Shown: positions 27,793 through 49,536 of the stretch, piece after piece
How positions within the stretch are numbered: position 1 is the stretch's first letter
Layout: each line of letters opens with the position of its first letter
Origin: Cyanidioschyzon merolae
Lineage: Eukaryota
Length of the DNA stretch: 64,000 nucleotides
Direction: 5' to 3' (one strand)
Assembly (NCBI GenBank): GCA_000091205.1
Contig: AP006501.2
Made by a program: the position numbers and the translations under genes
Notes under the pieces: generated by a model
What the model was told of the DNA's origin: nothing
The model's input: only the letters and a program-made list of their open reading frames with translations
The model's database searches: none

Positions 27793-27799
27793 AATTTCG

Positions 27800-32699: not shown

Positions 32700-33067
32700 G
32701 TATCAGTGGGGGCAATGCGTGCGCACAACCCCAATGCGTGTCTGCGTGCGCGCGCGGTGCTGTCCCAATGGGCGATGCGAGGCGTCGGCGCGCCGGCCGC
32801 CACGAGGCCACGAGGCATCCAGAATGGTATTTGCGAGAACATGGACAAATGGGATTGCAGCGTCCCGTTCGCCCTGCGTCGTCACGCCCGGTCGCCGTGC
32901 ATGTGCTCGTCTCCGGACGGGTTGATGTGCGGCCTGCGCGCTCCGAGCGCGAGTTCGATGGGCGATTCAGGATGCCTTGGGTATTTTTGTTCTATCCAGT
33001 GCAGCATGCAATGGAAAAGGTCGCGTCATTCGGGTGTCCAAGGTAAAGTTTTCGTCTTTTTCGATCT

Positions 33068-34362
33068 TCATGAACACCAGGCTGTGCGGGATTTTTCTCC
33101 AACTGACTCTTTTTCCTCTTTCTCGTATCCGGCATGAAACACGCTGGTCACGGTTTCGCTCCAGCGCCGTTGTAGGCATGCAAACGATGTTGATGGCAGC
33201 GTGCAAGTCCCGATTTCGCCGATGCCGGCTCTCGTTCAAGCATTTCATTCGCACTCAACAATACCGCAAGCAACAGATCCTCTTTGTGTACCGTGTAGAC
33301 GCGCAGCTCGCACCGGTGTCACTCGACTGTGGTCAGGTGTTCCTGGAGGTCCGTCGCAGCGCCTCATGCTTCGAGCGCTGCACACGCGCCGGACCGGTGC
33401 AGAGGCCTCGCTTCGATGCCGTCCTCCGGTTCCGCGCCCGGTGCCGTACCCTGCGATCATGGGCTTCTTCTGGGTAAGACCTTCGGCGAGGACTCTGTCT
33501 GATGCATGCGCACGAGCACGCTGATCCCGTCGATAACGTTTGCGTCGGACGCGATGTTGCTCATGATGAAACAAGCACTGAAATGGAAATCGACGCTCGA
33601 GGATACGTCGACGACTTTTGCGCTGTCTACGCCGCCTCCATGTTGGGCGCTGACGCATGCTCCTTTGTGAGCGATCGCTGCGATGACTCGATTCCGATCC
33701 CAAGGCTCTCGCCGATGCAACCAGAAGCGTCGAGCGTTTCTGTGGGCGCATCCCGTGACAACTGTGATGCTGCTGTCGGAGGCCTTTTCGATGAAGGCCA
33801 CAAAGAAAGAGGCACTTGCGTATCGAACGGAATCGATGTGTTGAGGAGGCGAGCTCCGCGAACGCTCGGCAACAGCTCGTCATACAGTCGCTTACGGACG
33901 ACGGCAGTTCTTTTGTGTCGTCGTCACCATCATCGTCGTCGTCGTCGTCGTCGTCGTCATACCAGCAGCGCAAATCGCAGTGTCCATGAGTTGCTTTGAG
34001 GGACGCGCACCGAATCGCTGCAGAAAGCGTGATTTGACCAGAGCAACCGTTAGGAAACGAAAAGAGTGAACGAGCGTGCGGATACATTGGATCCTGGTAT
34101 CGATTGCTTTACGGTGCCCTGCTCGAAGGTGCCGTATGTTGTTTTCATGACGATGACGGAAGGAATTTCAGCACCAAGGATTCGGAAAAGCACACCCCGA
34201 GAAGACGCCCCAGAGTCTTAAACCTGCGTCTGTATCCGTGAGCCCGTATGGCTGCGCTGCGAATATCGAGGATTGTGATGTAGAAAAGTTCAATGAAAAC
34301 ATCAAGGCAGGAGCAGAGCGCGCACTTCAGTGTTCCCTACAACCCTTATACGAGTGCAGGGG
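33068..34362. repeat. Copy A of a 1.3-kb dispersed duplicate (~98-99% identical to 46734..48024). Contains a 280-aa Arg-rich ORF with a poly-Asp run on the minus strand
   Basis: Track ORFs 32977..33477 and 46086..47141 (+) share an identical 140-aa C-terminal peptide. ORFs 33245..34087 and 46909..47748 (-) differ by about 3 residues plus one Asp. Boundaries were located by direct comparison of flanking sequence. Confidence 0.85.
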
Positions 34363-34809
34363 TATCGGCTCGAGGCGGCAAGCGCATAGATCGCGCAAAG
34401 GTGCCGTCTGCACAATTGGAGGTTGCACAGCGGTGCTGGCGGCTAGAACAAATCGCAAGCAGGCACCAACTTCTAGGCAACCGGCGCTGAGCGCTAGCGC
34501 ACGCCAAAAACCCTGCGGTACTGGCGGCACATGACGGGCTGCAGCGCCTGCATCAGCTGCGGACCCGCACCTATGATGCTGTGGTTGTACAGTGCGCCCG
34601 GAGTGCACCTCTCCCATACCGTTTACTGAACAGCACCTCCCATATGAAAATCATACACGCGAAGAACTATGGTACATGGATAGCGGAGAATAGGCGATGC
34701 AGGAGACCACGGCACGCTGGCGTCATCGAAAAGTAGAGAATGCTGCGTCGCGATGGGTAACGCTGAAACCCTTCTTCGCTGATGCACGACGCGAAGCACC
34801 CGCCCTGAT

Positions 34810-36312
34810 TCACACGTCCAAAACATGAAGGTTACCGGTAACCACGCAGTTCTCGAGCCGAGACCCCGCCGGAATATCAATAGACGCTCCCGGCTGGGCG
34901 ACAATGATGACCGTACCGCTCAGTTTGCAGCGTTTGCCGAAGCGCACACTGCCACTGACAGTTAATGACTCTAATTCTAAAATATCCGGCATACTCTCGA
35001 AACGGCTACTAAAGTCGCTCACTTTTTTGAATTCTGGACCCAACCGAATGACTGGCGTGCCGAGTTCAGCCGGACGCTCCGGATTCATACTAACATACCC
35101 CGAGACGATATTATAGAGATTACTTTGAATCAAGAGCAGATCGGATGTTGTCTTGACGGGCAGGAAACGGCTCCGTGGAACGTTAATACCCATGACGCGC
35201 TGGAAATGGGTAATGGCAGCACCCATAGCCGTCTCGAGCTGCAGCACGGTTTCGCCTTTCACAGTCTTCGTGTTGGGGATAATATCCAGCTCCATGGAGC
35301 CAGGTCCTCTGTCCATGATTCGCTTGAGCGCCTTGAGTTGGATCCACAAACTATTGGTATTGAATACTCGGAATTTGGATATGTTCTGGAAATCTCCCAA
35401 GTGCTCCTTATCGACCTGCGCGACTTCTAGCAACCTCGGCTTGCCTTGGTACGTGATCAGCGTGCCTCCTTTCCGATCGGAGCGAGTTCTCGTTGCCATT
35501 TCGATTGTAAATTCAACCTGATGATCCGCGATTGCTTTGAGAATCCGCGTATCCAAGGACGCTCCAAGGTTGTCACTGTTACTCACGAATATCCATTCCT
35601 TGCCCTCGGCGAGCAGCCGATCCAGCATGCCCGATTGCAGAAGCGCATCATACATGTCGCCGTGACCCGGCGGGTACCAGTCCTCCTTGTCGTACACTTC
35701 AGAGTCGAGGCACAGGGGTCGCAGTGTGTCGCGCACCAGACGCGGATACCTAGACTGCTGAAACGTACGAATCGGAATGAGATCCTCGTACTTTCGAATG
35801 ACTTTCAGTGTATCCGCATCCGTGTTAAAACTATTCATTAGGAGAAGAGGCACCTTGATTTGATACCGCTTGTTGATGGACTCGATCTGCTTCACGATAA
35901 TGTCCAAAAACGTCTGTCCCGAGCGGATTTCGATCACGGACTTGGGGCCCGAGCACCCCATCGAGGTGCCGAGGCCTCCGTTCAGCTTCAGTACAGCGAC
36001 GCGGCTTAGAAGCGCTCGCGCCTCAGTTTCGTTCGGTTCGGGTAGTTCTGCGTAGGGTCGCAATAGCTCCGCCGATGGCGGCTGGATCTGGTCCCAATCC
36101 AGTGCCGCGGACGCACTGGAGCGCGTCTCCAGGTACCGACCCAACAGGTGCACAAAACCCTGTTGTTCTGCTTCGCTCATGCGTGCACGTACGTCAGTCG
36201 CCCTTTCATTGATTTGACGTATTTCCTCCAACAGTGCCTTCTCCAGAGACTTGTCTGTGAGGTGAGCGAAGTTCGCAAAAGAGGCATCGTGGCTGGTTCG
36301 CACCAAAGGCAT
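34810..36312 (-). CDS. UGP: UTP-glucose-1-phosphate uridylyltransferase (UDP-glucose pyrophosphorylase), 500 aa, complete
   Basis: LKLNGGLGTSMGCSGPKSVIEIRSGQTFLDIIVKQIE, NSDNLGA, and the C-terminal left-handed beta-helix region. Collinear with eukaryotic UGPase throughout. Confidence 0.9.
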   Translation of the reverse strand: MPLVRTSHDASFANFAHLTDKSLEKALLEEIRQINERATDVRARMSEAEQQGFVHLLGRYLETRSSASAALDWDQIQPPSAELLRPYAELPEPNETEARALLSRVAVLKLNGGLGTSMGCSGPKSVIEIRSGQTFLDIIVKQIESINKRYQIKVPLLLMNSFNTDADTLKVIRKYEDLIPIRTFQQSRYPRLVRDTLRPLCLDSEVYDKEDWYPPGHGDMYDALLQSGMLDRLLAEGKEWIFVSNSDNLGASLDTRILKAIADHQVEFTIEMATRTRSDRKGGTLITYQGKPRLLEVAQVDKEHLGDFQNISKFRVFNTNSLWIQLKALKRIMDRGPGSMELDIIPNTKTVKGETVLQLETAMGAAITHFQRVMGINVPRSRFLPVKTTSDLLLIQSNLYNIVSGYVSMNPERPAELGTPVIRLGPEFKKVSDFSSRFESMPDILELESLTVSGSVRFGKRCKLSGTVIIVAQPGASIDIPAGSRLENCVVTGNLHVLDV

Positions 36313-37634
36313 CGTGTTCGGGTAAGAGTGTGGACACCGCTCCAGAGCTCTTCACTCGTTTCAAGCACGCACGACGCTCAAGTAAGTAGACTTGTCTTGA
36401 CCTTGCTTCAAATTAGAGCAGTAAGTCACCAGTAACGAGCTTGCTGGTGCCGTTCACAGTGATACCACCTACTTGAACAACGAAGAACACGTGTGAAGTC
36501 TCCGTCGTCGCCTGCTATTTACCCGGCGCGTGGCGCATTGCGCGCATTATTGCCACACGAGCGCCTTTGGATCGCCGCGCATTCGCTGGCTGCCTGCCTG
36601 CCTGCGTCGCAGCGAATGCCGACACGTATACGCGCCGTACGCAGGCACGCACGTAGACCACACATCGCGCGGCGCCCGAGCGGATCGCCCGCCAGCTGGA
36701 GCGCGCGTTGATCCGCTGAATGCTGGAGCGCGCGCTAAGCGTACCCCGAGCACACCAGTGAACGAGACGTCCATTTCATGTCCGGAACGAGAACGTCACG
36801 TCGTTCTGTCTGCGCTGTGCAGGGCACTGATCGTCGCGGCGAACGGCTGGGATACAAACGAGACATCCACAGTCGTTGAGCGGATGGAATCTCGGACGCC
36901 CGGCTTGCAGACTGATCAGGCGCACGCGGAACGGCAGATTCACTGTGAATGTGCTGTAGGCTTTTGTTTGATTCGCGGGAACATGCATGCATGCATCCAG
37001 GGCATCTCCCTTGGAACACGGACGCTAGACCAAGAACAATCGTAGGCGGGTGCATGCGTGCGCAGTGGCAGCACGCATGGTGCATTGCATGCGTGCATGC
37101 ATTTCCCGCGCAAACGCCTGGAGCCGGGGCATGCCAGCGCTGCGCTCATAGACGCGTTCCGTACAAAGCAGCGCGCTTCAGGGCACTGCACGCTCTCCGG
37201 GGTGCTCGTTGGGGTCATTCCGTCGCGGTATCCTGCTCTTCCCAGCGAGTAGCTGCCCAAAGTCGAATGCCTGCGTGACGTCTACGTGAGTTTTCAGCGG
37301 CAGCGCGTCAGGTGACCTCGGAGCGCGCTGCCTCGAGGGTGCAACGGACAACTTGGCAAGAGGCGCCACTCGCGTCCGGTGCTCGCATCAACAGCTGGGT
37401 TGAAGCTTGAGCGGAGGCGTTTTTATAGCCGCGTAGACAAGAATCAGTGACAACAACACGTCGTTTAGGATGATGCGCGGCTGGCGTGTGTGCAGCCTAA
37501 AGGCGGGGCGTGCACGTTGCACGGGTGCCGGCACCCTCGTGGACGCTTCGATTGCACTCGGACGCGCTTGCTGGTAGCGGTAAGCGCGGACCGCTCCACG
37601 CCGACTTGCACGTTAGCTGGGTACGTGCGCAGCG

Positions 37635-40600
37635 CTACGGGTCAAAGCCCAGGGCCTTGCGATATGCAGCCTCCTCGCGCCAGGTGAGGCGATCACGGAC
37701 CCAGTCGCCGCTGGAAGTGCGACGTCGATATCTCGGACGATTTGTCCCGCCGCCGAAGATATCGACCAGGTCGCAGGTATGGACGCGGGGAAATATGGTG
37801 TCTGGATCGACACGCGTTTGCTCGATTAATGCTCCATAGAGACGATGGCTCCGCGCCCATTCCGGTATGAGGTGCCGCTTAGCAGCGGGCACCGCAGCGC
37901 TCTCATCATCCGAGGCATCCGCCGAGTGGTGTCGCTCCGGAGTCAGCGGGTACTCCGCGGGAGCCTCGTCCGCGGCGGCAGCAGCAGCAGCAGCAGCAGC
38001 GGCAGCAGCTATCTGGGACGCTGGCTTTGTCCCATGCGACTTGAGCAGACCACTCGCTACGACCTGTTGTTGACGGAGCGGCGCAAGACGTGCCTGCTGG
38101 CGCTCGGTCTCCAGTGCGAGCCTTCTTTGATGCTCCAAAATGCGGCGTCGTTTCTCCTCGCGCCGTTGGCGGTATGCGTCCTGGACATCGAGGGGCGCCT
38201 CTGCATCCACGGGAGCTTGCCTTGGAGATGGATTCCCGTTGAGATCGACCAGGGGCTTCACTGCTGTGCGCGAAGGCGTCGCTGAGACAGGCGTAAGCGA
38301 CGTCGTGTCCACTGCTGTGGGTTGTTTCAGCGAAGCTGGGACGCAGTTCGGCGAGGCGCGCTGATCCATCCGACTCTTGAGCGTCTCGGGGCTGGGCGAA
38401 GCCCCGCGCACGCGCTTGCTCGATTGAGGCATTGTGGCTATGACGATCCGGTAACGAGACGGGCTGCTCCTTGCGTGCCCCAGCGTTGCCCATGCTTTGT
38501 TTGGTGACGGTTTCAGCACCGAATTTGTGCCGGTGGCTTGCAGCTCAGTGGCGTTCTGCAGCGGTTCTACTTGCATGCGCGCTGGTGAATGCGTCTGACG
38601 AGTGGAAACCGCTCCAGCGGAAATTGTAGCGGATGCGGTGGCGACGGCAGCGTTCCCCGGCAGACCATAGCCGCTGACATCCTGCTCCAGCGGAGGCGAT
38701 GGCGCAGCTCTCGACGTGGAGCGCCCGGTGCGATGGCGATCCTCGCACATTTCGTGCTGGACCGTCGAGCTTCGGTCGCCGGCAGCTCCCACAGCTTCGA
38801 TCCGACTGGGACTGGGGCACACCGGGAGCGCTCCAGCACGCATCGCGCGCAACCGCTCGATGCGCGTGCGCAGGGCCTCGGTTCTCGAGAGCCTGCTAGA
38901 AACACCGCCAGGAGCACCGCCAGGTCCCGGCTGGCGCTCACCACCAGGCGCAGCTGCAGCGTAGAGGGTATGGTGCGGCATGGGCGTTCCACTGGCGTGC
39001 GCTGGTGGCATGATCGTTTCGTCTACCGCTGCGGGAGCGCGCTTCGGGTCTGCAAGTCGCAGTGCGTGAGCGTCGTAGCCGTCGTATGCGACGCTGGTTG
39101 ACGCTGCCGGCGCCCTACGAACGGAAAGCAGCATCTCCGTCGCAGTTTGCGAGCGCTCGAGCGCATGGAACGACCCGTCTATCGCGTTCGTGGCGTCAGA
39201 TGGACTGCGCGATCGTGAGCGTCTCGCTTGCTGGTCACTTGCACCAGCTGCACTCAATGGCGAGCGAGGACGGCTGGGCCTCGCTAGTTTGGCGTTGGCA
39301 GTCGTCGCCTGGCCGGAATCCGGTACCAGCGACGCTGCCGCTGCCGCTGCCGCTGCTGATGGCGCTAGTTCGACCGGCGCCGCGCAGCTCGGCATCGCTA
39401 CCGAACTGGAGTCGCTCGCCACAGCGGGTTGCTGTGCCGCGTCCGCCGCGCAGTCCGGGTTCCCGACTCGCCCATTCGCTGCATCCTGGCCACATGACCC
39501 AGCTCGGATCGCATCCGCGTTTTCCGCAAGTGCGCCGTTGTCGTCGCTCGGTACTGTGGCCAATTTTGGGTCGCATTCGAGCGTCTGTTCCAGTTGGAAA
39601 ATCTGGCCTTCAATGTCGGTCGCATTCACGAACGAGCCGGGGCCGGATGCGGTTGGCGAAGCGCAGCGCGCGCGATAAACCTGTTCTGGGCTCGCAACCG
39701 AGTCGATTGGCGCCATCGCGAACGCGGCAACTGGCCGATGCGCTGGCGCAGGTGACGCGGACCCACGGCCCGGGTGCATTGTATGCCGCCCGGGGCTCAG
39801 TGAAGCCGAACGCTCGCGTGTACCCTTCATCTGCGCTTGAGATGCCGTCACGCCCTCCATTGTGTAGGCGCTGTTCTCGGGCAGAGCGCTGGACGTGCCC
39901 AGCTGGCGCATCGCCGCCGACGCTTGCGCATCAACAGCCGAAGCTTCCGTGGTAGCATTGCCACTGGCACTCAGGGCATGCTGCGCTCGCGCGAAGGTTG
40001 GCAGCGGCAATGGCGTTATCGGCGCGACAGCTCCTCGATGCACAGACGATCGGCGTCGTGCCCGAACCGTCTCTGTGGCATTCTCCGTGGAAAACGATTC
40101 AGCATGGTCGCTCGGGTGGCATTCGGCGGCGAAGTCGCTGCAGGTGACGCTGCCGGCACGCTGGGCGCCATTCGTCAAGGCCATCATTGTGCGGATCGCC
40201 TCTGGCGCCGCAACCTTTTGGGGTTCGTTGTATTCGAGCTGTGCGCTGTTCCGCTCTGGATCCACTAACGACCGCCGCATTGGCGGTGATTGCGAAAGCA
40301 TTGCGGAGCTACGTCGATTCGGTGCTGTTCGATGCACCGGAGACGATAGATGCGATGCCGGGGTACGCAGTGAGCGCTCCTTGGTCTGGGAGCACGCTGC
40401 CGGTGTTCGGGGCAGGGCCTCATCGCCCGCTTCGGCAGCGTTCATCCGCGGCGAATGCCCTGAAGCGTTATCAAAAGCTGGGCGCGTTGCGAGAGACCCT
40501 GGAGTATGCCACTCGTTGCCAGCAGGGGCCTGTAGCGAAGCCTGAACACCCCTGATGGTCTCTGTGGCAACGTCTTGGCCGGGATTTGTCACAGTGCAAT

Positions 40601-43600
40601 GTGTGCGACTGTTCGCATCGATAGTGACTGATGCGCGCGACATCATCTGGCTCGGCGACATGGTGCCTGACCCTGAGCGATGCTTACGAATCGAGTCAGA
40701 TGGCACATTAGCCGCAAAGCGCGTCTCCTGCAAAGACGCTGCACGGCGTCTGCTGGACATCGATGGCGATACACCGGTTTTTGGTGTCGGCGCTGGCGAC
40801 GCCCTTATCGACATTCGTTGCCATCGCGCTCTATCTGCGATATTCTCGGTGACGTTTTGGAGGCTGGACCGCGGAGCTGCACCACCCCCAGACGCTGCTC
40901 TGGATTCGGCTGGGATTTCGCAACTGCTCGCCACGGTCCCGGTGACTTGCTCGAGCGATGACCTCACTCCTGGACACCGTTCACCCACATCTGGTGCCAT
41001 TCCATCGACGTCGTTCTCGGATGGGGCGTGTTGCGGACTAAAGCGCAGCGCGGCAGGCAACTGACCCTGAATGCACCAAGAGAGAGGGTTCAGTGGTGAA
41101 TCAGCAGCGCTGGGCGATGGCGACTGCGCTGCTGCAGGCTGTTCAGCGGCAGGTGCGGGCATCGATTCGCAGCGAAACGCAGATGACGGATCAGTAGCCA
41201 GAGGTATGCTCGCGGCCTCCGTGCGCATAGCTGTGTCCTCGTCCGCGATGCCATTATCATGCGGTTGTCGCGGTGATGGCGGCGAGACGTCCCCGAGCAC
41301 CAACGAGCGCGTCGGAAGATGCTTGGGGCAGGGACTGCATGCCTCGACTGCTGCCCCGCTGGATGGAATATCGCCGCGCGGCGGCGTCCATTGCCTGTGA
41401 TGCATATCGCTTGGCGGCGTTTCCGACACTGCTGCAGCTTTTTGCGATACGAACGATGATCCGTGAACAGCTAGCCTGGCGCTTTCGACCCGAGGCGTCG
41501 TTGGCGTCGTACTGGGCCCAGGCAGGCGCAGCGCATCGGCCGCTGCGGCTCCAGAGGGATCCACAGATGTCGATTCCGCGGGCGCGAAATTTTCGCCTTG
41601 CGGGTCGCTCAGGGCCGCGGGCGAAGCTGCCAATGCTGCAGCTGGACAAGCACTGGATGTCCCTGAGCCATGTACGGGGTCTGAAGCGGCCTCCGCAGGG
41701 TCCTGCTTCACCAAAGCCGCCGCCGCCGCCGCCGCCGCCAAATCGATACGGGCTTGGCTCGTCGACGGTCGACGTTCTGGATGCGACTCTGAATGTGCAG
41801 CAGATGTCGAGGCCGGGTGATGCACATCGTACCGCGGCGAAGGCAGCGCTTTGCTGGCACTCCCTGCAGCCGATGCCGAATCGTCGGCTTGCGCGGACGT
41901 CCAGTTTGAATGAATCTCTCCAGCAGTGGACGGCTCTATGGGCACCGGCTCCTGCTCGGTTGCTGCTTGCTTCTGATGTATTCCAGCTGACGCATGGGGC
42001 GCATCCGCCGCTCCGTTTCGTGTTCGAATGATGCACGGGCTCGTGAACGAAACGTTGTGCGCATCGCGAATTTGCACTCGAGTCTGAAGCCCTGGCAGGG
42101 CTCCATTGAGACTTTCCGATATTGCCACCGGAAGCGAGGGACGCGATCGATTGCATAGGCGGGCGCTTTTTTCAGGCAGCGAAGCGCTTCGCCTGTTATT
42201 CGCGCCTCGGCCCTGATCCGGTGATATGGTGTCTGGAGCCCTCGATGTTGCGCGCCGAGCACCATGCATCGACTGCTGCCGCTCCGCTCGTTTCGACGAC
42301 GCTGTTCTTGGCGATGCCATGCCTCTGGATACCGGCGGTAGGGACGTGTTCTGCAGAGCGTCTTGGGGACGGCGCCGACGCCGTCGTGTTCGGGTCGGCA
42401 TTCGCTCGGGACTAGCGGGCGCTAGGCGCTTGATTACCGACGACTCCCGCGCTGCTTTGTCCGCACCAGAGCGTGACCTGGACGGCGGCGCCTGCCGTTG
42501 ACGGCGTCTCGGCATTGGCGCTCGCGGTGCTCGTCGCGTTTGCTCTGGAGTGCTCTGGCCCAGCGATATGTTCGTCATGGGCGTCATTCTGCTCGTGTTG
42601 GGTTGGTCGACAGCTGCGCTCAGGTTAGGAGCGCTTGGCGCGCACTTTTCGCAGAACCAATCCTTCTGGGGCACCTGGTCCAGCGGCGGCCTACAGCAGT
42701 ACGTGTGGAAACAGTCATCGCATCGATCACATAGAAGCATCAGATGGGGGTCCTCCATGCCCTTGCATCGTCGGCAGTACGTCTCGTCCTTGTGCGGGGT
42801 TCGATTCTCCGCCTTGGCCCGTGAGAACGGCGACAGTAGCTCTAGGGCCAATGCCCGCGCACGATCTGCAGTGCTTTGCTGATGCCGTCGAGCAGTCGCA
42901 CGGGGTGCTCGTGTGGCGAGGTCGTTCGCGTGCGTCTCAGACGATGGCGCTACTCGAGCCAGACCAGAATCTCGCCGTTTTTTCGGTCGCAACGGTACAG
43001 CGGATGCACCTGAGTCTGCCTCTGCTCCATCAGCGGCACATGTGGAAGAGGGTCGTGAGAAGCGCGCGCTTCCAACGCGCTGCACGGGCGACGCGCGGGC
43101 ACCATGTAAGGCCGGTGCTGCTGCATTTAGCACCGCATCGCGCTTAGGTGAAACGGGTTGCGCTTCCTGCTCAGATGCGTGCTGTGGCGGAGCACGCTTT
43201 CGTTGCACGCGTGACCTTTTGGTGGCTTGCGAGGTGCGACCGGCTGTCTCTCTCGTTGATCGCCCGCAGGCGATACTGAGCGCATCCGTTTCCGCTGGTG
43301 CTGCCCTTTCGGCTGCCTGTATCGAGGGTGACCGGTGAGAGCGGCGGTCTTGGCGCTGTGCGCGCTCTCTTATGCCTCGTCGCTGGTTCGTTTGACGCTG
43401 CCCTGCGTTGGAGGCAGGCGATCCAAGCGGCGACTCTGGCGGTGCAGGTGTGCGCTGCTGTTCTCGGGTGCCAGCGTAACGCTCCGATGGAATGTTGGGG
43501 CGCTCGTCTTGCATGAGCTGTTGATCATTGTTCTCGTCGTGGAACGCGAACTGATCGGATTCTGCTGCAGCGGCACGTTCCAACGATGACGACGACGGCA

Positions 43601-44336
43601 GTGGCGACTGGGCGCCAGACCTGATCGGGTCTGGCTCTTTTCGTGGCGCGTTCAGTACGACCGGTATCTGGGAATTTTGTCTAGAGTCATTGGTTTTGCG
43701 CTCGTGTAGTGCAGTGAGACGACGGCGTCGGCGCGCGCGAGCGTCCAGCATCATGCTCTTTCGCGATGCCGCGGGCGGCCGCACAAGGCCTACGAGCGAA
43801 TGCCGCGGGTCCCAGGTCTTCCATCCCTGGCCGGGTGGCCTCGTGCCCGGTGCGACTGACTCGCACATGCTTGAGATGCTGTGGCTTTCAGCACGACGGA
43901 AGAGCGAGCCGTGTGAGCTGGTGTCTCGACAATCGTCGGACGGAGCAGCAATTGAGGGTGTTTCGCGACTTGGACCTCGACAGCCATCGGATGATTCACT
44001 TGCTGGCAAATGATATGACGCCGCTACCTTGAAGCGTTGCGGTTCTGCTGGCGATGCAGCGGCACTGGCGACGTTGTTCGTGTCGGGCATTGTGGTGTTC
44101 CCCAGCGAGTCAATGGCGTGATCAAGCGCGCTTCTTGCCGCCGCCGCCGCCGCCTCGTGACTGCTAGTCGGAATCTCTGGCAACCTTGTCGCACACGCGC
44201 GAATCGTCCGTTGGAACCGAACGATTTGTGCTTCATATTCGCCCAGTAGAACAGCCTGCTGTTGCTCTGCAATGTAGTGGAGCGCATGAATGGCGTCCAA
44301 AACTGTCCGCTTTCGAAAAGCGTCGCGCGTAGACAT
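37635..44336 (-). CDS. INCENP: Giant (2233 aa) INCENP-like chromosomal-passenger protein with an internal PHD finger and a C-terminal IN-box. Mostly disordered, Ala/Ser/Pro/Arg-rich
   Basis: C-terminus IPEWARSHRLYGALIEQTRVDPDTIFPRVHTCDLVDIFGGGTNRPRYRRRTSSGDWV matches the INCENP IN-box that binds Aurora B (human: IPSWA...VDVDQVFG...[21 protein letters not shown]). It is preceded by a charged single-alpha-helix stretch (RQRREEKRRRILEHQRRLALETERQQARL). PHD finger C4HC3 at aa ~521-566: CRRCKGMEDPHLMLLCDRCDDCFHTYCCRPPLDQVPQKDWFCEKC. Confidence 0.75.
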   Translation of the reverse strand: MSTRDAFRKRTVLDAIHALHYIAEQQQAVLLGEYEAQIVRFQRTIRACATRLPEIPTSSHEAAAAAARSALDHAIDSLGNTTMPDTNNVASAAASPAEPQRFKVAASYHLPASESSDGCRGPSRETPSIAAPSDDCRDTSSHGSLFRRAESHSISSMCESVAPGTRPPGQGWKTWDPRHSLVGLVRPPAASRKSMMLDARARRRRRLTALHERKTNDSRQNSQIPVVLNAPRKEPDPIRSGAQSPLPSSSSLERAAAAESDQFAFHDENNDQQLMQDERPNIPSERYAGTREQQRTPAPPESPLGSPASNAGQRQTNQRRGIRERAQRQDRRSHRSPSIQAAERAAPAETDALSIACGRSTRETAGRTSQATKRSRVQRKRAPPQHASEQEAQPVSPKRDAVLNAAAPALHGARASPVQRVGSARFSRPSSTCAADGAEADSGASAVPLRPKKRRDSGLARVAPSSETHANDLATRAPRATARRHQQSTADRARALALELLSPFSRAKAENRTPHKDETYCRRCKGMEDPHLMLLCDRCDDCFHTYCCRPPLDQVPQKDWFCEKCAPSAPNLSAAVDQPNTSRMTPMTNISLGQSTPEQTRRAPRAPMPRRRQRQAPPSRSRSGADKAARESSVIKRLAPASPERMPTRTRRRRRRPQDALQNTSLPPVSRGMASPRTASSKRAERQQSMHGARRATSRAPDTISPDQGRGANNRRSASLPEKSARLCNRSRPSLPVAISESLNGALPGLQTRVQIRDAHNVSFTSPCIIRTRNGAADAPHASAGIHQKQAATEQEPVPIEPSTAGEIHSNWTSAQADDSASAAGSASKALPSPRYDVHHPASTSAAHSESHPERRPSTSQARIDLAAAAAAAALVKQDPAEAASDPVHGSGTSSACPAAALAASPAALSDPQGENFAPAESTSVDPSGAAAADALRLPGPSTTPTTPRVESARLAVHGSSFVSQKAAAVSETPPSDMHHRQWTPPRGDIPSSGAAVEACSPCPKHLPTRSLVLGDVSPPSPRQPHDNGIADEDTAMRTEAASIPLATDPSSAFRCESMPAPAAEQPAAAQSPSPSAADSPLNPLSWCIQGQLPAALRFSPQHAPSENDVDGMAPDVGERCPGVRSSLEQVTGTVASSCEIPAESRAASGGGAAPRSSLQNVTENIADRARWQRMSIRASPAPTPKTGVSPSMSSRRRAASLQETRFAANVPSDSIRKHRSGSGTMSPSQMMSRASVTIDANSRTHCTVTNPGQDVATETIRGVQASLQAPAGNEWHTPGSLATRPAFDNASGHSPRMNAAEAGDEALPRTPAACSQTKERSLRTPASHLSSPVHRTAPNRRSSAMLSQSPPMRRSLVDPERNSAQLEYNEPQKVAAPEAIRTMMALTNGAQRAGSVTCSDFAAECHPSDHAESFSTENATETVRARRRSSVHRGAVAPITPLPLPTFARAQHALSASGNATTEASAVDAQASAAMRQLGTSSALPENSAYTMEGVTASQAQMKGTRERSASLSPGRHTMHPGRGSASPAPAHRPVAAFAMAPIDSVASPEQVYRARCASPTASGPGSFVNATDIEGQIFQLEQTLECDPKLATVPSDDNGALAENADAIRAGSCGQDAANGRVGNPDCAADAAQQPAVASDSSSVAMPSCAAPVELAPSAAAAAAAASLVPDSGQATTANAKLARPSRPRSPLSAAGASDQQARRSRSRSPSDATNAIDGSFHALERSQTATEMLLSVRRAPAASTSVAYDGYDAHALRLADPKRAPAAVDETIMPPAHASGTPMPHHTLYAAAAPGGERQPGPGGAPGGVSSRLSRTEALRTRIERLRAMRAGALPVCPSPSRIEAVGAAGDRSSTVQHEMCEDRHRTGRSTSRAAPSPPLEQDVSGYGLPGNAAVATASATISAGAVSTRQTHSPARMQVEPLQNATELQATGTNSVLKPSPNKAWATLGHARSSPSRYRIVIATMPQSSKRVRGASPSPETLKSRMDQRASPNCVPASLKQPTAVDTTSLTPVSATPSRTAVKPLVDLNGNPSPRQAPVDAEAPLDVQDAYRQRREEKRRRILEHQRRLALETERQQARLAPLRQQQVVASGLLKSHGTKPASQIAAAAAAAAAAAAADEAPAEYPLTPERHHSADASDDESAAVPAAKRHLIPEWARSHRLYGALIEQTRVDPDTIFPRVHTCDLVDIFGGGTNRPRYRRRTSSGDWVRDRLTWREEAAYRKALGFDP
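37638..37880 (-). other. IN-box (Aurora-kinase-binding) module at the extreme C-terminus of the INCENP-like ORF
   Basis: RPRYRRRTSSGDW with upstream DIFGG and IPEWA motifs, in the canonical order and spacing. Confidence 0.75.
42640..42778 (-). other. PHD zinc-finger module inside the INCENP-like ORF
   Basis: Cys4-His-Cys3 spacing read directly from the minus-strand translation. Confidence 0.8.
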
Positions 44337-46733
44337 TGGCGCTCACAACTCGAAAGCCCACTAGCGTCCTCTTGTACCGCGTAAAAGGTATGTTTCTCCT
44401 GGTCGAAAGCCGGTTGCTTGGACAAGTTCGAAGCACGTCACTCCGAGGCGGCGCCACGGTACTGCTGCCAAGTCCCGATAGCACAGCGAGGTCGAGCGGT
44501 GCTGAAACGACACGCAGCGGCGACGTGCAAACGCGCGGCCTTACACAACTGTCTTGTTCGCTCCCGTGCCCTGATGACTCGGCACACAAAGCTGCCTCTG
44601 ATGTCTGCTGCCCGTTCACGTTACGCTCGTGCTCGGCGAGCAGCGCGATCCCAGGTCGCAGCGTCGAACAGTCCCGGAGCGCAGCGATACGCCCACACGT
44701 GGCGTTGGAAGCGCCGGCTCTCCTGGAGTTTAGCAGGCGGTAAAACAGGGCGATAACGCCCCGGATCAAAGAAGGGCTCTGTCTGGTGCAGATAAACTCG
44801 ACAGGCCCGTTCAGTGGGGGGAGAAGAGCTCGACGCACGCGCTCGATGCCGTCCGAGCGCGGAACGTGGCTCGCCTTCTCGGTGCAGGGACACACTGGGT
44901 GCCGCAGCCGGCAGCGCGAGGCGGCCGTCTCCCACGATGATGCGATCGCGTCGGGAATTCAAATCGACGGATGCGAGGTTCAGGAGAGGGTCTGGTTTAT
45001 TCATTTATGTTCGCTTATGTCTAGTATGCTCCCAGTGATGCGAGGCAGCCGTGGTGGTACGCGTTCAGCGTGGCTGCGTGATCCACGGAGCGCGGGCCGA
45101 TATTTCTGATGACGAAACGATAACCATTGACCATGGATCCCAGAATTCGGGATGGATGGATGTATAATGGCTCTTGAAAAAGTGTCCATGATGAACCACC
45201 TACCTTCAAGTTCCAATAGCTATACTTCCTCTCGGATTTACTGGTCGTTTCGTATGTTCTATCGAGCGCCGAGTGCCTGCTGTGGGCACCCGCCGAAGCG
45301 CTTCCACCGCTGCAGCAGATGCTGCACGGCGACAGAACAGCTTTGCCATACCACTGAGAGCGTCGGCTCGAGACGTGGTTCATTCGATACGGGGCCGGAG
45401 TACATAGTAATTCTGGGAGCCTGCGACAGCGCGAACCGATCTACCAGGAGTCCACTGCGACCAGTGCGATGCCCAGATGCAGCTTTCCTGCGTCTAGTCC
45501 CAGAATGAACTGCTTTGCGAACGAGCTGCGCGGGTCTCTCCACAGCACCTGCCACTGGAGGGAGCATGAAGCACTCGTCTTGCAGACTCGTCCGGCTCGC
45601 GGACCTTCCGCTTAGGAGATTCACGTTCGGCAATGTAGAAAGCTTTCCATTCTTATAACGTTTATCGTAGCGCGACCCGATGTCGTTGGTGGTACTGGCG
45701 CTGCCAAGCCCCGGAGTCCCGACTGCTGCCCCGGTATTTTCGGGACGACGGGGATCGATATTCAAGGAGCATCTGCAGTGTGATCATGATTTTGAACAGC
45801 GAGCCTGGCAAGGCCGCTTTCGAAGTGCCCCCAGCCGCTGCACCGTGGCACGGCTCGCGAATCGGCCGCTCCAGACGTTGCCTCTGGAGGTTGCGTTGAA
45901 TAAAAAACCGCAGTTCCTGTCCAATATCCTGAGAAAATCAGGATTATCACGAATCGCATGTATGGTTGCGTACAGAGGCGCTTGACGCAGTGTTCGGCGA
46001 CTGCTCCTGCGTCGTCGTGGACCTAAGAAGCGACGTTCGCAGCGCCTACCGCCGCGACTAGTATGGATACGCATCCGGCAGAGCGATGAATCCCTCGTAT
46101 ACGGGTAATCGCCAGCCAGCGGCCGGGATCCAATCATTACGATGCTTTTGCAGTCGACTCCTGTGGGCGCTCCCAGGGTTCGCATGCACTGTGTATCGTG
46201 CACATGCCCCGGTGCTGATGAGCGCTGGAGATGCCAGCAACTGGCAGCGTCCATGCATGCAAGGCATTCTGATCAGATTCAAGTATTTTTGGAAGATGTG
46301 CGGTTGCGGAATCGAACGGGGGATCTGCAGGTGCGCGATCTTTATCGGCATCGAGGGAGGCATCTATCATGCAGCAGTAGCGCAGAGTTTCATGGATCAC
46401 CACCTAGGCTTCCACTCGAAAAACATAGTCCATTCATACAAGCTTGTAGGTGCCGAGCCGACGATGAGTGCGTATAAAGACGCCAGTAGCACCGTTCAGG
46501 ACACTGCACGGAAGCGGAAGGGTTTTGGCGTTCCCGCGCTGGTGCGTCATCTCAAAGAGATGCGCGGATCCTATGTTGTAAACGTGACTGTGCAAGTATC
46601 GCAGCAGTTTAGGCCAGCAAACGGAACGACACGCGCGACTTTCGAGCATTTACACCCATACCAGATAAGAATGGTATGGGTAGATTCAATTCACAAGGGC
46701 ATCTACGCTAGAGTCCGGTCTCCAAGCATTGTC

Positions 46734-48024
46734 ATGAACACCAGGCTGTGCGGGATTTTTCTCCAACTGACTCTTTTTCCTCTTTCTCGTATCCGGCATG
46801 AAACACGCTGGTCACGGTTTCGCTCCAGCGCCGTTGTAGGCATGCAAACGATGTTGATGGCAGCGTGCAAGTCCCGATTTCGCCGATGCCGGCTCTCGTT
46901 CAAGCATTTCATTCGCACTCAACAATACCGCAAGCAACAGATCCTCTTTGTGTACCGTGTAGACGCGCAGCTCGCACCGGTGTCACTCGACTGTGGTCAG
47001 GTGTTCCTGGAGGTCCGTCGCAGCGCCTCATGCTTCGAGCGCTGCACACGCGCCGGACCAGTGCAGAGGCCTCGCTTCGATGCCGTCCTCCGGTTCCGCG
47101 CCCGGTGCCGTACCCTGCGATCATGGGCTTCTTCTGGGTAAGACCTTCGGCGAGGACTCTGTCTGATGCATGCGCACGGGCACGCTGATCCCGTCGATAA
47201 CGTTTGCGTCGGACGCGATGTTGCTCATGATGAAACAAGCACTGAAATGGAAATCGACGCTCGAGGATACGTCGACGACTTTTGCGCTGTCTACGCCGCC
47301 TCCATGTTGGGCGCTGACGCATGCTCCTTTGTGAGCGATCGCTGCGATGACTCGATTCCGATCCCAAGGCTCTCGCCGATGCAACCAGAAGCGTCGAGCG
47401 TTTCTGTGGGCGCATCCCGTGACAACTGTGATGCTGCTGTCGGAGGCCTTTTCGATGAAGGCCACAAAGAAAGAGGCACTTGCGTATCGAACGGAATCGA
47501 TGTGTTGAGGAGGCGAGCTCCGCGAACGCTCGGCAACAGCTCGTCATACAGTCGCTTACGGACGACGGCAGTTCTTTTGTGTCGTCGTCACCATCATCGT
47601 CGTCGTCGTCGTCGTCGTCATACCAGCAGCGCAAATCGCAGTGTCCATGAGTTGCTTTGAGGTACGCGCACCGCATTGCTGCAGAAAGCGTGATTTGACC
47701 AGAGCAACCGTTAGGAAACGAAAAGAGTGAACGCGTGTGCGAATACATTGGATCCTGGTATCGATTGCTTTACGGTGCCCTGCTCGAAGGTGCCGTATGT
47801 TGTTTTCATGACGATGACGGAAGGAATTTCAGCACCAAGGATTCGGAAAAGCACACCCCGAGAAGACGCCCCAGAGTCTTAAACCTGCGTCTGTATCCGT
47901 GAGCCCGTATGGCTGCGCTGCGAATATCGAGGATTGTGATGTAAAAAAGTTCGATGAAAACATCAAGGCAGGAGCAGAGCGCGCACTTCAGTGTTCCCTA
48001 CAACCCTTATACGAGTGCAGGCCT
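46734..48024. repeat. Copy B of the 1.3-kb dispersed duplicate (see 33068..34362)
   Basis: Near-identical sequence. The (GTC)n run is one unit shorter than in copy A (D9 versus D10). Confidence 0.85.
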
Positions 48025-48585
48025 GCGTTACAAAGCACCCTTGCATCACGCAACGGAAAGGATATGGAGTATCCACTAGTTAAAGGCTCTTTTAGCGATC
48101 TTGAGAAGAATGTTTTCACTGATGTAAAAGCTCGGTTACGGTAAGGCATTTTCTATCAATTTGACGAGCTATTGGAATATCTGCAGCTGAAAAGGGAAAC
48201 ACGCTGAAATCCGGCATGCAAGACCGCGTTTCCAAAATCGTTAGCTATGATACAGGATGAGAAATCCTCACAATCAATGATGACAACTACCCTCTGCACT
48301 CATCGACATACCAAGGGACTGTCACGAATTGAGTGAGCCTATGGGAGTCGCGGACAGGCCTGCTCGGCCTGGTCCGGGTCATATTCACGTGCTTTCAGAA
48401 ATATGTTACGAGCTGGTGCCAACACGTATCCAGGCAAAGCTCCAAGCGCATGAGCAATATCTCACGAAAGCGCGGGGCACCTGGATGTCGGTAAGGTCGC
48501 GCCCTGCACGCCCCGGTCATGCACTGACGATTTTGCCGTTCACGGGCGTTCTCGCATGCAGACCAAGTCAACAAAACAGGAGCAC

Positions 48586-49536
48586 TTAGCTATGATCAGT
48601 CGGTACGATGCCCTCTACCGATACAGGTTTTCCGTCGCAGGTGGCGGCTTCGGCGGTCCGCTCTCGCTCACAGGACGCAAGCTCGCTCTTGCGTACGAAA
48701 CGGCCCTTGTAACGCGGTCGAGCCTCTGCTAGCTCTTTGCGGCAAACGTAGCGAACAGTTTTCCAACATTTCCGTTGCCGTTTCTTCTCACGATACCGGA
48801 TGTACGCTCGGTAACGATGTTCTCGAGCAGTCCATGGGCCGCCCACACGACTACTGCTGTCCACTCTGGGTACCAAGGACCGAGCCTGCTCGCTGCCGTC
48901 CGCAACGTCTCCGCTGCCGTGACATGGTCGACCGTTCTCAGCCGAAAAACATGAGATCGATGCAGCCGTGTAACTTCGACGTGACTCGCCGTCCGAGGCA
49001 CCTGAATCTAAAGGCGCCGAACTGAACGAACGGTCCCCTTCAACGACGCCGGCTACAGCGGAGCTCACGAGCTCGTCAAGCAACGGCGAAGTTGGCGCTA
49101 GCCAAGGCACTTGCTCGAGACTGAGCGGCGAGAAGCCCCTGCGGTCCATTCCACTTCCTTCAGGTTGCGCGTCGTCGGCACGTACCTGCGAGCGCGGAGA
49201 TCCCTCGACGCTGACGAGGCTCGCGTAGCTACCGGCTGTCGGACGCGCAGCTGCGCGTTCCAGTGCATGACTCTGAGAAGTTAGTCCTTGTGAGGGTTTC
49301 TGGTTGGCTCCGGGTCCACTGGACTCATGCAACACAGGCCCAGCGGTGCCCTGGTTGTCTCCGGGCAAAAAAAGCGACTCCAGGTCCGCCCAGTCAAAGT
49401 TTCCGGTGTCAACACGTGGTGTGAGGAAGTCGTCGAACCCCGTAGGCGTTATCCACATGTTACCCCAGTGATCGTGCTTGCGTTCGGTACCAGGAAGCAG
49501 CACTTGCGTTCTCCCGTAGTGAGCAGGGCGTTGCAC
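48586..49536 (-). CDS. CCT-motif (CONSTANS/CO-like/TOC1-type) protein, 316-aa ORF. The CCT motif is near the C-terminus and the rest is disordered
   Basis: REHRYRAYIRYREKKRQRKCWKTVRYVCRKELAEARPRYKGRFVRK is a near-consensus CCT motif (consensus [37 protein letters not shown]). Nothing else in the ORF is recognisable. Confidence 0.7.
   Translation of the reverse strand: MQRPAHYGRTQVLLPGTERKHDHWGNMWITPTGFDDFLTPRVDTGNFDWADLESLFLPGDNQGTAGPVLHESSGPGANQKPSQGLTSQSHALERAAARPTAGSYASLVSVEGSPRSQVRADDAQPEGSGMDRRGFSPLSLEQVPWLAPTSPLLDELVSSAVAGVVEGDRSFSSAPLDSGASDGESRRSYTAASISCFSAENGRPCHGSGDVADGSEQARSLVPRVDSSSRVGGPWTAREHRYRAYIRYREKKRQRKCWKTVRYVCRKELAEARPRYKGRFVRKSELASCERERTAEAATCDGKPVSVEGIVPTDHS

What the first reader, a model, noticed from the sequence alone, without database searches (positions are those of the whole stretch)
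33068..48024. 1.3-kb near-identical direct duplicate bracketing a 12.4-kb segment (UGPase + INCENP-like gene)
Copies at 33068-34362 and 46734-48024 are ~98-99% identical over ~1295 bp, with sharp boundaries, no terminal inverted repeats and no target-site duplication. Each copy lies ~450-560 bp downstream of the stop codon of a minus-strand gene (UGPase; the CCT-motif gene). Both retain an open 280-aa Arg-rich ORF with a poly-Asp run. Nothing between the copies looks like gag or pol, so this is not an LTR element. It looks like a recent segmental duplication or a gene-conversion-homogenised low-copy repeat, and as a direct repeat it is a substrate for deletion or duplication of the intervening 12 kb
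Basis: seen in the sequence. Interest (0 to 1): 0.6.

Follow-up and report, generated by a model that had tools for sequence, protein, structure and literature searches.

The report
Duplicated dead Fanzor transposon relic pair
The two near-identical 1.3-kb copies are real, but they are decayed remains of a transposon that once carried a Fanzor (TnpB-like) nuclease, part of an old repeat family scattered through the red alga Cyanidioschyzon merolae, so the finding is largely ordinary.

Summary
Window 33068-34360 and 46732-48021 are direct repeats, 98.995% identical over 1293 columns (10 mismatches and one 3-bp microsatellite indel). They have sharp edges, no terminal inverted repeats and no target-site duplication. 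The window is chromosome 19 of Cyanidioschyzon merolae 10D.

The unit is not an anonymous segmental duplicate. On the minus strand it carries a dead Fanzor1/TnpB-like nuclease gene, split over three frames with two in-frame stops and a surviving RuvC-III motif (NRDLHAAINIV). It belongs to a dispersed family of about 1.34 kb. Three more copies in the window are 57-60% identical to it. This family is distinct from the published C. merolae Fanzor1 element CMe-1A.

The 5' edge of the 99% tract is the family's 5' end. The 3' edge stops about 47 bp short of the family's end, and each locus keeps its own diverged family-type tail. This suggests one resident relic was recently overwritten by the other.

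Two sites show concerted change between strains. Wild C. merolae metagenome contigs carry the unit at these two loci only. A syntenic sister species lacks it at both.

The 280-aa ORF and the annotated gene CMS162C are probably not real genes.

The parts
33068..34360 (-). Copy 1 of the 99%-identical tract (1293 bp). The element reads on the minus strand, so its 5' end is at 34360.
   Evidence: 98.995% identity to copy 2; family membership.
46732..48021 (-). Copy 2 of the 99%-identical tract (1290 bp).
   Evidence: The family HMM, built without this copy, matches 48020-46667.
33018..33067 (-). Site 1's own 3' tail. It resembles the family but is diverged from site 2's tail, and it lies outside the 99% tract.
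   Evidence: (A-C1 22/45, C1-E 24/45, p<0.001).
46686..46731 (-). Site 2's own 3' tail, also family-like and outside the 99% tract.
   Evidence: (C2-E 20/45, p=0.007).
33374..33778 (-). Copy 1: nuclease relic, central conserved region (...AEGLTQKKPMIAGYGTGRGTGGRHRSEASAPVRR), in the frame of the 280-aa ORF.
   Evidence: tblastn with intact relatives; alignments.
33307..33399 (-). Copy 1: RuvC-II / zinc-ribbon relic in a second frame, with two in-frame stops (EA*GAATDLQEHLTTVE*HRCE).
33183..33245 (-). Copy 1: RuvC-III motif relic in a third frame (KCLNESRHRRNRDLHAAINIV).
47038..47442 (-). Copy 2: nuclease relic, central conserved region.
46971..47063 (-). Copy 2: RuvC-II / zinc-ribbon relic with stops. 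The sequence is the same as in copy 1.
46847..46909 (-). Copy 2: RuvC-III motif relic.
33245..34087 (-). The 280-aa Arg-rich ORF with a poly-Asp run. It is partly the decayed nuclease frame and partly a chance extension, and is probably not a gene.
46909..47748 (-). The 279-aa counterpart ORF in copy 2.
33933..33959 (.). (TCG)n microsatellite, which encodes the poly-Asp run. This is the site of the only indel between the copies, and it is polymorphic among strains.
2762..4097 (+). Older family copy A, about 57% identical to the unit.
17583..18913 (+). Older family copy B, about 58% identical to the unit.
61813..63161 (-). Older family copy E, about 60% identical to the unit.
34810..36312 (-). 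UGPase gene, inside the bracketed segment.
   Evidence: 100% identity to C. merolae 10D.
37635..44336 (-). Gene for a PHD + INCENP_ARK-bind protein, inside the bracketed segment.
45108..45673 (+). Fragment of the unrelated CMe-1A / TE-N2_CMe element (consensus positions 2-585, 78% identity), inside the bracketed segment.
46086..47141 (+). Annotated hypothetical gene CYME_CMS162C. It straddles copy 2's left edge, is antisense to the relic, and is probably spurious.
48586..49458 (-). CCT-motif 'zinc-finger protein' gene, upstream neighbour of copy 2.

Best explanation
Shown: The two copies are a near-identical pair of a dead transposon relic. The element lies on the minus strand and once encoded the C-terminal (RuvC) half of a Fanzor1-type, TnpB-like RNA-guided nuclease. 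That reading frame is now broken into three frames with two in-frame stops. The unit belongs to an old dispersed family of about 1.34 kb in Cyanidioschyzon merolae. The window holds five copies, and the other three are 57-60% identical to the unit. All five share the same 5' truncation point relative to intact ~700-830-aa relatives.

Inferred: Nothing in the unit need be functional today. The 280-aa ORF and the overlapping annotated gene CMS162C are by-products of Arg-rich, GC-rich decayed sequence.

Inferred mechanism: Both loci already held old, mutually diverged family members, acquired after the split from the sister species. Recently one relic was overwritten by the other through a non-reciprocal copy event (ectopic gene conversion or template-switch repair). 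The tract runs from the element's 5' end to the most conserved block near its 3' end (...GGTGTTCATGA). Each locus's own ~47-bp 3' tail was left untouched. Occasional gene conversion has since kept the two tracts about 99% alike.

Consequence: As direct repeats they could mediate loss, duplication or circularisation of the 12.4 kb that carries UGPase and the INCENP-like gene.
For: Identity as a Fanzor relic:
- phmmer of the 280-aa ORF against 1.84 billion representatives finds itself plus 68 weaker hits, E 5e-14 to 1e-3.
- Intact-looking hits share PVIIGYGTGRGNGGGHKGE..VPVKAMYRAL, a CxxC zinc ribbon and RNRDFNAAINIL.
- P0231 and P0245 pass the Pfam PF07282 (Cas12f1-like TNB) cut-off.
- A profile of 11 intact relatives matches CMe-1, the published C. 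merolae Fanzor1 protein, at hhalign probability 98.1%, E 9e-14. Its only PDB hit is Parasitella Fanzor1 9cf0, E 0.0027.
- The frameshift-corrected relic matches that profile at probability 98.8%, E 4.3e-17, 39% identity over 146 columns.
- Frames and stops are shown directly.

Family:
- nhmmer finds copies at about 2762-4097(+), 17583-18913(+) and 61813-63161(-), E 1e-70 to 1e-84.
- Every pairwise alignment is confined to the same ~1.3 kb despite 2.5-kb flanks.

Edges:
- Inter-lineage identity rises from 0.30 to 0.45 exactly at unit position 1. It stays at 0.45 for positions 1301-1350, beyond the 99% tract, where C1-C2 identity falls to 0.53.
- Tail similarity, ungapped: A-C1 22/45, C1-E 24/45, A-E 23/45 (each p<0.001); C1-C2 only 14/45.
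- The tail motif occurs nowhere else in the window, the outgroup or CMe-1A.

Two loci only:
- The protein clusters found and the contigs fetched from them all map to sites 1 and 2. A 34-mer scan of JGI metagenomes gives 7 contigs, 4 at site 1 and 3 at site 2.

Lineage-specific:
- The syntenic sister-species locus L017 lacks any trace of the unit. The intergenic spacers are 848 vs 2155 bp at site 1 and 2244 vs 4355 bp at site 2.

Conversion:
- At 33110 both 10D copies carry T, while all wild contigs that cover it (6 at site 1, 5 at site 2, plus one unassigned) carry C. Site 34153 shows the same pattern apart from one site-2 contig.
Against: - Homologous recombination between sequences only ~58% identical is normally inefficient.
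- The 5' end of the 99% tract coincides with the family's 5' end, where there is no conserved block to resolve a conversion. Under the overwrite model this is a coincidence, or else needs an element-end-specific process.
- The tract's 3' edge falls exactly after the most conserved 3' block. That is also what a true transposon end would look like.
- The ~47-bp tails could therefore be a preferred target sequence rather than part of the element. I could not find an empty site to decide.
- Wild-strain haplotypes come from short-read metagenome assemblies, which can mix reads from the two copies. Only sites close to unique flanks, such as 33110, are safe.
- I could not search the complete 10D genome, so a third near-identical copy in 10D itself is not formally excluded.
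Confidence: 0.78

Rival explanations
1. Recent transposition in trans. The 1293-bp tract is itself the complete mobile unit, with its ends at CCTGCAC... and ...GTTCATGA. Machinery supplied elsewhere copied it to a second site. The ~47 bp beyond the 3' end is a preferred target sequence shared by all family insertions.
For: - Both edges of the 99% tract coincide with family landmarks: the family's 5' end and the end of the most conserved 3' block.
- The lack of TIRs and TSDs fits the lack of TIRs and undetermined TSDs reported for the C. merolae Fanzor1 element CMe-1A (PMC3627910), and the IS200/605 and IS607 elements that carry TnpB (my own knowledge).
- Intact relatives exist in environmental, virus-like contigs.
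Against: - No intact family member, transposase or third young copy was seen. Only two contexts appear in all wild contigs.
- The other family copies are ~40% diverged, so the family looks long inactive.
- The tail motif is never found without an adjacent element.
- Tail conservation (0.45) equals that of the element's own first 50 bp, as expected if the tail is part of the element.
Confidence: 0.15
2. A plain segmental duplication of anonymous intergenic DNA, unrelated to mobile elements, later homogenised by gene conversion.
For: - Only two near-identical copies exist.
- There are no TIRs or TSDs.
- Two concerted sites are seen between strains.
Against: - The unit carries a Fanzor1-type nuclease relic.
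- It has three diverged paralogues in the window whose homology starts exactly at the unit's 5' edge.
- Both flanks beyond the 3' edge are family-like.
Confidence: 0.04
3. A duplicated functional gene: either the 280-aa Arg-rich protein on the minus strand, or CMS162C on the plus strand at copy 2.
For: - The ORFs are open in both copies.
- CMS162C is annotated in GenBank as BAM82782.1.
Against: - The 280-aa ORF has no Pfam domain.
- At least 5 of the 8 substitutions inside it change the amino acid, plus one Asp-codon indel.
- Its only homologues are Fanzor proteins and other decayed relics. The homologous frame continues in two other frames with stop codons.
- Wild variants carry frameshifts, for example P0176.
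- CMS162C matches only its own cluster among 5.8 billion proteins. It straddles the repeat edge, so at copy 1 it is cut to 76 aa.
Confidence: 0.02
4. Assembly artefact: a collapsed or mis-joined repeat.
For: None found. Short-read contigs do break inside the unit, which only shows that it is repeated.
Against: - Nozaki et al. 2007 present the 10D sequence as 100% complete, with every contig gap and chromosome end filled (PMC1955436).
- All four junctions are reproduced in independent assemblies.
- Contig L033 links copy 1 to copy 2 across the 12.4 kb.
Confidence: 0.01

Closest known systems
CMe-1A, the Fanzor1-bearing interspersed element of C. merolae (Bao & Jurka 2013, PMC3627910). It is probably the '253-copy, 3.2-kb WSV486-like interspersed repeat' of Nozaki et al. 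2007 (PMC1955436).
   Same: - It is in the same genome.
- It is a dispersed, old element. Copies are ~80% identical to the consensus, which implies ~60% pairwise identity.
- It has no TIRs and its TSDs are undetermined.
- It carries a Fanzor1-type nuclease with IETDGV, DPG and NRDFNAAINI motifs.
- The profile of the unit's intact relatives is homologous to CMe-1 (hhalign probability 98.1%).
   Different: - There is no nucleotide similarity. The 3169-bp CMe-1A consensus hits other places in the window (27788-28763, 45108-45673, 4420-4988, 9088-9873) but none of the five family copies.
- Protein identity is only about 26%.
- The unit's family is ~1.34 kb, corresponding to the C-terminal half of the nuclease, against ~3.2 kb for CMe-1A.
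Fanzor1 / TnpB (OMEGA) RNA-guided nucleases, for example Parasitella parasitica Fanzor1 (PDB 9cf0)
   Same: - The RuvC-II, zinc-ribbon and RuvC-III region is recognisable.
- The host element lacks TIRs and TSDs, as reported for CMe-1A and, to my own knowledge, for the IS200/605 and IS607 elements that carry TnpB.
   Different: - Here the gene is dead, with at least 2 frameshifts and 2 stops.
- It is 5'-truncated and no RuvC-I aspartate can be identified.
- No conserved guide-RNA-like structure was detected and no Rfam family matches.
Low-copy direct repeats that mediate non-allelic homologous recombination, such as dispersed Ty/delta elements in yeast or the repeats used for gene amplification in Leishmania. 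This comparison rests on my own knowledge and was not tested here.
   Same: Two ~99% identical direct repeats of 1.3 kb bracket a 12.4-kb gene-bearing segment. Gene-conversion signatures are present. One contig has the predicted deletion junction (L003).
   Different: There is no direct evidence for rearrangement in 10D. The bracketed genes (UGPase and the INCENP-like gene) are probably essential, so a deletion would be lost in a haploid.

Membership tests
Fanzor1 / TnpB-like nuclease gene (as a relic) | Significant sequence similarity to bona fide Fanzor/TnpB proteins | tested here: met
   The ORF matches P0180 and P0189 at E 4e-11 and 4.5e-9 against 1.84e9 proteins. The frameshift-corrected relic matches the profile of intact relatives at probability 98.8%, E 4.3e-17. 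That profile matches CMe-1 Fanzor1 at probability 98.1% and PDB Fanzor1 9cf0 at E 0.0027. P0231 and P0245 pass Pfam PF07282.
Fanzor1 / TnpB-like nuclease gene (as a relic) | RuvC-III motif (N)RDxNAAxNI | tested here: met
   NRDLHAAINIV is encoded at 33183-33215(-) within the tblastn match 33183-33245, and correspondingly at 46847-46909(-).
Fanzor1 / TnpB-like nuclease gene (as a relic) | RuvC-II glutamate and CxxC...CxxC zinc ribbon | tested here: inconclusive
   TDLQEHLTTVE*HRCE aligns to VDVWEHLTTKKCHRCE. The Glu is kept, but the first Cys codon is a stop and only one Cys of the second pair remains.
Fanzor1 / TnpB-like nuclease gene (as a relic) | RuvC-I aspartate (GIDPG motif) | tested here: not met
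   No DPG-like motif is recognisable upstream of the aligned region, and alignments to intact relatives start downstream of it.
Fanzor1 / TnpB-like nuclease gene (as a relic) | Intact open reading frame (that is, an active nuclease) | tested here: not met
   The homologous region is spread over three frames with two in-frame stops, identically in both copies.
Fanzor1 / TnpB-like nuclease gene (as a relic) | Guide (omega/f) RNA encoded at the 3' end of the element | tested here: inconclusive
   RNAalifold on the 3' regions of the five copies gives -8.9 kcal/mol with an unfavourable covariation term. There is no Rfam hit. No expression data are available.
CMe-1A / TE-N2_CMe (the published C. merolae Fanzor1 element) | Nucleotide similarity to the 3169-bp consensus | tested here: not met
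   nhmmer and BLASTN of the consensus (taken from the PMC3627910 supplement) hit four other regions of the window, but none of the five family copies.
Dispersed repeat (transposable element) family | Several diverged copies in unrelated contexts with common homology limits | tested here: met
   Five copies lie in 64 kb. All ten pairwise alignments are confined to the same ~1.3 kb. The identity profile steps up at unit position 1.
LTR retrotransposon (the two copies as its LTRs) | TG...CA termini, a 4-6 bp TSD, and gag/pol between the repeats | tested here: not met
   The termini are CATGAAC...GTGCAGG. There is no TSD. The interior encodes UGPase and an INCENP/PHD protein.
Cut-and-paste DNA transposon or MITE | Terminal inverted repeats and a TSD | tested here: not met
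   The end-to-end inverted alignment scores 8, and shuffles give 8.0 +/- 1.6. The flanks are unrelated.
Helitron | 5'-TC...CTRR-3' ends, a 3' hairpin, and insertion between A and T | tested here: not met
   The element strand starts CCTGCAC and the tract ends TTCATGA. The tail has GCCC(T/G)AG-like motifs, but no consistent CTRR or hairpin.
Gene-conversion-homogenised low-copy repeat | Paralogues within a strain share states that differ from both paralogues in other strains | tested here: met
   Site 33110 is T in both 10D copies and C in every wild contig that covers it: 6 at site 1, 5 at site 2 and one unassigned. Site 34153 is similar, with one site-2 exception. Caveat: the wild data are short-read metagenome assemblies.

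The most novel reading that the evidence does not exclude
The unit may not be inert. Its conserved 3' block plus the variable ~47-bp tail could be a guide-RNA-like module. An active Fanzor nuclease supplied in trans, for example by the intact relatives seen on virus-like contigs, would then cut resident family members at that junction and drive their replacement by a donor copy. This would be RNA-guided homing between dispersed relics in a eukaryote. It would explain why the overwrite stops exactly at ...GTTCATGA and starts at the element's 5' end.
Probability: 0.04. Interest if true: 0.75.

Novelty: new member of a known kind. Interest (0 to 1): 0.27.

Why it matters
Practical consequences:
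- A GenBank 'hypothetical protein' (CMS162C) and an apparently conserved 280-aa ORF are explained as by-products of a decayed transposon. They should not be treated as genes.
- C. merolae holds a second Fanzor1-derived repeat family besides the published CMe-1A. With five copies in 64 kb, it fills much of the larger intergenic space in this window of a very compact genome.

Evolutionary points:
- The pair shows that old, roughly 58%-identical relics can still exchange sequence.
- It also creates a 1.3-kb direct-repeat substrate around two housekeeping genes (UGPase and an INCENP-like protein).
- This is relevant to genome stability in an organism known, from the gene-targeting literature rather than from anything tested here, for efficient homologous recombination.

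None of this is surprising to a transposon specialist.

Tried and rejected
- Trypanosomatid origin. I guessed this from the intron-less minus-strand genes. The UGPase is plant/fungal-type and 100% identical to C. merolae, so I rejected it.
- Exact-protein look-ups. Look-ups of the window's UGPase and 280-aa ORF found nothing. I reached the contigs through cluster members instead.
- LTR pair, cut-and-paste element and Helitron. All were rejected on termini and TSD.
- Membership in CMe-1A / TE-N2_CMe. Rejected, because the consensus does not match the unit.
- The 3' tail as a piece of CMe-1A or a free-standing target motif. No matches were found.
- Conserved RNA structure at the 3' end. None was convincing. 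Rfam and tRNA scans were empty.
- Homologues of CMS162C. None exist outside its own cluster.
- Literature on CMS162C. None was found.
- Precise empty-site comparison with the sister species. It failed because intergenic DNA is unalignable at 77% coding identity. Only spacer lengths could be compared.
- A gapped-score permutation test on the tails was underpowered. I replaced it with in-register identity counts.
- Defining transposon ends from intact relatives. The three contigs fetched share one virus-like context, so no ends could be defined.

Full report
**Observation.** A BLASTN self-comparison of the window gives a single long direct match. It joins 33068-34360 to 46732-48021 at 98.995% identity over 1293 columns, with 10 mismatches and one gap. 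The base-by-base alignment shows identity switching on and off within one or two bases at both ends. The gap is one TCG unit of a microsatellite that encodes the poly-Asp run. Six of the ten mismatches cluster at 34002-34081. No terminal inverted repeat exists: the end-against-end score is 8, and shuffles give 8.0 +/- 1.6. The 20-nt flanks show no target-site duplication. The 280-aa and 279-aa ORFs are present.

**Organism and neighbours.** The 500-aa ORF at 34810-36312(-) is 100% identical to UTP-glucose-1-phosphate uridylyltransferase of Cyanidioschyzon merolae 10D, on a 1,282,939-bp record. ORF 46086-47141(+) is the annotated hypothetical protein CYME_CMS162C. ORF 48586-49458(-) is annotated as a 'zinc-finger protein'. 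The window is therefore chromosome 19 of a genome presented as 100% complete (PMC1955436). The 2233-aa ORF has PHD and INCENP_ARK-bind domains, and the 316-aa ORF has a CCT motif.

**What the unit encodes.** The 280-aa ORF has no Pfam hit. An exhaustive phmmer search against 1.84 billion cluster representatives returned the ORF itself plus 68 weaker hits. The intact-looking hits are 376-833 aa long. They share the motifs SIETDGVGVSI, GIDPGRVNLY and PVIIGYGTGRGNGGGHKGE..VPVKAMYRAL. They also share a CxxC...CxxC zinc ribbon and RNRDFNAAINIL. This is the Fanzor1/TnpB architecture.

- Two of these proteins pass the Pfam cut-off for PF07282, Cas12f1-like TNB.
- A profile of eleven of them is homologous to CMe-1, the C. 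merolae Fanzor1 protein of Bao & Jurka, at hhalign probability 98.1%, E 9e-14.
- The profile's only PDB match is Parasitella Fanzor1, 9cf0, at E 0.0027.

In the unit the homologous region runs on the minus strand through three frames.
- 33778-33374 is the frame of the 280-aa ORF.
- 33399-33307 encodes 'EA*GAATDLQEHLTTVE*HRCE', with two stop codons.
- 33245-33183 encodes 'KCLNESRHRRNRDLHAAINIV'.

Joining the frames gives a pseudo-protein that matches the profile at probability 98.8%, E 4.3e-17. The gene is therefore a dead relic. The long ORF is partly the old frame and partly a chance extension. CMS162C is antisense to the relic and straddles the left edge of copy 2. It has no homologue outside its own cluster among 5.8 billion proteins.

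**A dispersed family.** nhmmer with the unit finds three more copies in the window, at about 2762-4097(+), 17583-18913(+) and 61813-63161(-). E-values are 1e-70 to 1e-84 and identity is 57-60%. I gave each copy 2.5-kb flanks, yet all ten pairwise alignments are confined to the same ~1.3 kb. Two of the three older copies show the same nuclease relic with stops; the third gave no protein-level hit.

The published CMe-1A consensus (3169 bp, from the supplement of PMC3627910) matches other parts of the window, but none of these five copies. This is therefore a second Fanzor1-derived family. CMe-1A is very probably the '253-copy WSV486-like' repeat of Nozaki et al. I infer this because Bao & Jurka list a Fanzor1 in the shrimp white spot virus.

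**Edges.** In a five-copy alignment, identity between family lineages is 0.29-0.30 in the 100 bp upstream of the unit. It is 0.45 in the unit's first 50 bp and 0.5-0.6 inside. It is still 0.45 at positions 1301-1350, beyond the 99% tract, and then decays.

The tails beyond ...GGTGTTCATGA are homologous among the copies. In-register identities are A-C1 22/45, C1-E 24/45 and A-E 23/45 (p<0.001 each), and C2-E 20/45 (p=0.007). The two tails of the pair match each other at only 14/45 ungapped, or 0.53 in the gapped alignment. A family HMM built without copy 2 aligns 65 bp past copy 2's 3' edge, but not at all past its 5' edge. The tail motif is not found anywhere else.

The 99% tract therefore starts at the family's 5' end and stops ~47 bp before its 3' end, just after the most conserved 3' block. 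Each locus keeps its own old tail.

**Comparative evidence.** Contigs from metagenomes and Logan assemblies, ~99% identical to 10D, reproduce all four junctions. The protein clusters and contigs I fetched, together with a 34-mer scan of JGI metagenomes (7 contigs), show the young unit only at these two loci.

A sister species, ~77% identical in coding DNA, has the same gene order: MFS - TauE - ABC1 - CCT - INCENP - UGPase - 263-aa gene - Zip - Na/H exchanger. It shows no trace of the unit. Its spacers are shorter by 1307 bp at site 1 and 2111 bp at site 2.

Both 10D copies carry T at 33110, whereas every wild contig covering that site carries C, at both loci. Site 34153 behaves the same way apart from one site-2 contig. 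This is the signature of gene conversion, with the caveat that the wild data are short-read assemblies.

**Interpretation.** The identification as a pair of dead Fanzor1-family relics is well supported. The way the pair became 99% identical is inferred. Both loci retain different, family-type 3' tails. The family otherwise looks long inactive, and there are only two young copies. I therefore favour overwriting of one resident relic by the other, through ectopic conversion or template-switch repair, followed by occasional conversion.

The main rival is trans-mobilisation of a 1293-bp unit with a target preference for the tail sequence. It explains the neat coincidence of both tract edges with family landmarks. 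It cannot be excluded without an empty site or a genome-wide consensus.

Three other readings are very unlikely: plain segmental duplication, a functional duplicated gene, and mis-assembly.

**Recombination potential.** Contig L003 (JGI sample 3300054705) joins the left flank of site 1, one unit and the right flank of site 2. This is exactly the deletion product. In the same sample, contig L018 carries the normal UGPase-side junction. An arbitrary path chosen by the assembler through a two-copy repeat is at least as likely as a real deletion allele. A real deletion would remove UGPase and the INCENP-like gene.

**Verdict.** The object is an ordinary transposon relic pair, in a family related to but distinct from the known C. 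merolae Fanzor1 element. I score interest as low to moderate.

Noticed in passing
L003 1-6879 (JGI 3300054705, Ga0556633_012437); corresponds to window 30574-34360 joined to 46732-50500: This contig joins the left flank of copy 1, a single unit and the right flank of copy 2. That is the predicted NAHR deletion junction, which would lack UGPase and the INCENP-like gene. It could equally be an assembler mis-join through the repeat. The same sample also yields the normal UGPase-side junction (L018).
   Followed up: partly
window 46086-47141 (+): The annotated gene CYME_CMS162C (BAM82782.1, 351 aa) starts 646 bp outside copy 2, ends 410 bp inside it, and is antisense to the nuclease relic. It has no homologue beyond its own cluster among 5.8 billion proteins. 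At copy 1 a shorter ORF from the same protein cluster is only 76 aa. It is probably a spurious gene model.
   Followed up: yes
window 27788-28763 (-), 45108-45673 (+), 4420-4988 (-), 8419-9876 (+): These are fragments of the published CMe-1A / TE-N2_CMe Fanzor1 element, ~78% identical to the consensus for the first two. One of them (45108-45673) lies inside the 12.4-kb segment. It accounts for the weak inverted match 28503-28707 / 45179-45383 seen in the self-BLAST.
   Followed up: partly
L030 3749-5404, L031 3753-5408, L032 9-1664: Intact 551-aa relatives of the relic sit on contigs that also encode an RNA ligase, a 2H-SAK protein and a Peptidase_S74 (tail-spike chaperone) protein. This suggests a virus-like genome. 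The host and environment are unknown.
   Followed up: no
window 34002-34081: Six of the ten substitutions between the two copies fall in 80 bp, where about 0.6 would be expected. Two of them (34002 G and 34016 C) were seen only in 10D copy 1, apart from G at 34002 in one wild site-1 contig. This may be a local mutation cluster or a short patch of different origin.
   Followed up: partly
window 33933-33959 and 47597-47620; L021 2500-2731: The (TCG)n microsatellite that encodes the poly-Asp run varies in length and sequence among strains. Logan contig L021 switches at this microsatellite into unrelated low-GC sequence, which is probably an assembly chimera.
   Followed up: no
window 51006-51646, 55307-56298, 61000-61357, 17312-17489: These are tandem arrays with 71-bp (9 copies, 97% identity), 188/94-bp, 94-bp and 87-bp periods. 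The last two lie next to family copies: one a few hundred bp beyond the 3' end of E, the other just 5' of B. Their nature was not investigated.
   Followed up: no
window 1-64000: Relics of the two Fanzor1-derived families account for about 10 kb of this 64-kb window, mostly filling the larger intergenic spacers. For the genome as a whole, Nozaki et al. 2007 quote about 5% for the WSV486-like repeat plus 0.7% for classical transposons.
   Followed up: partly
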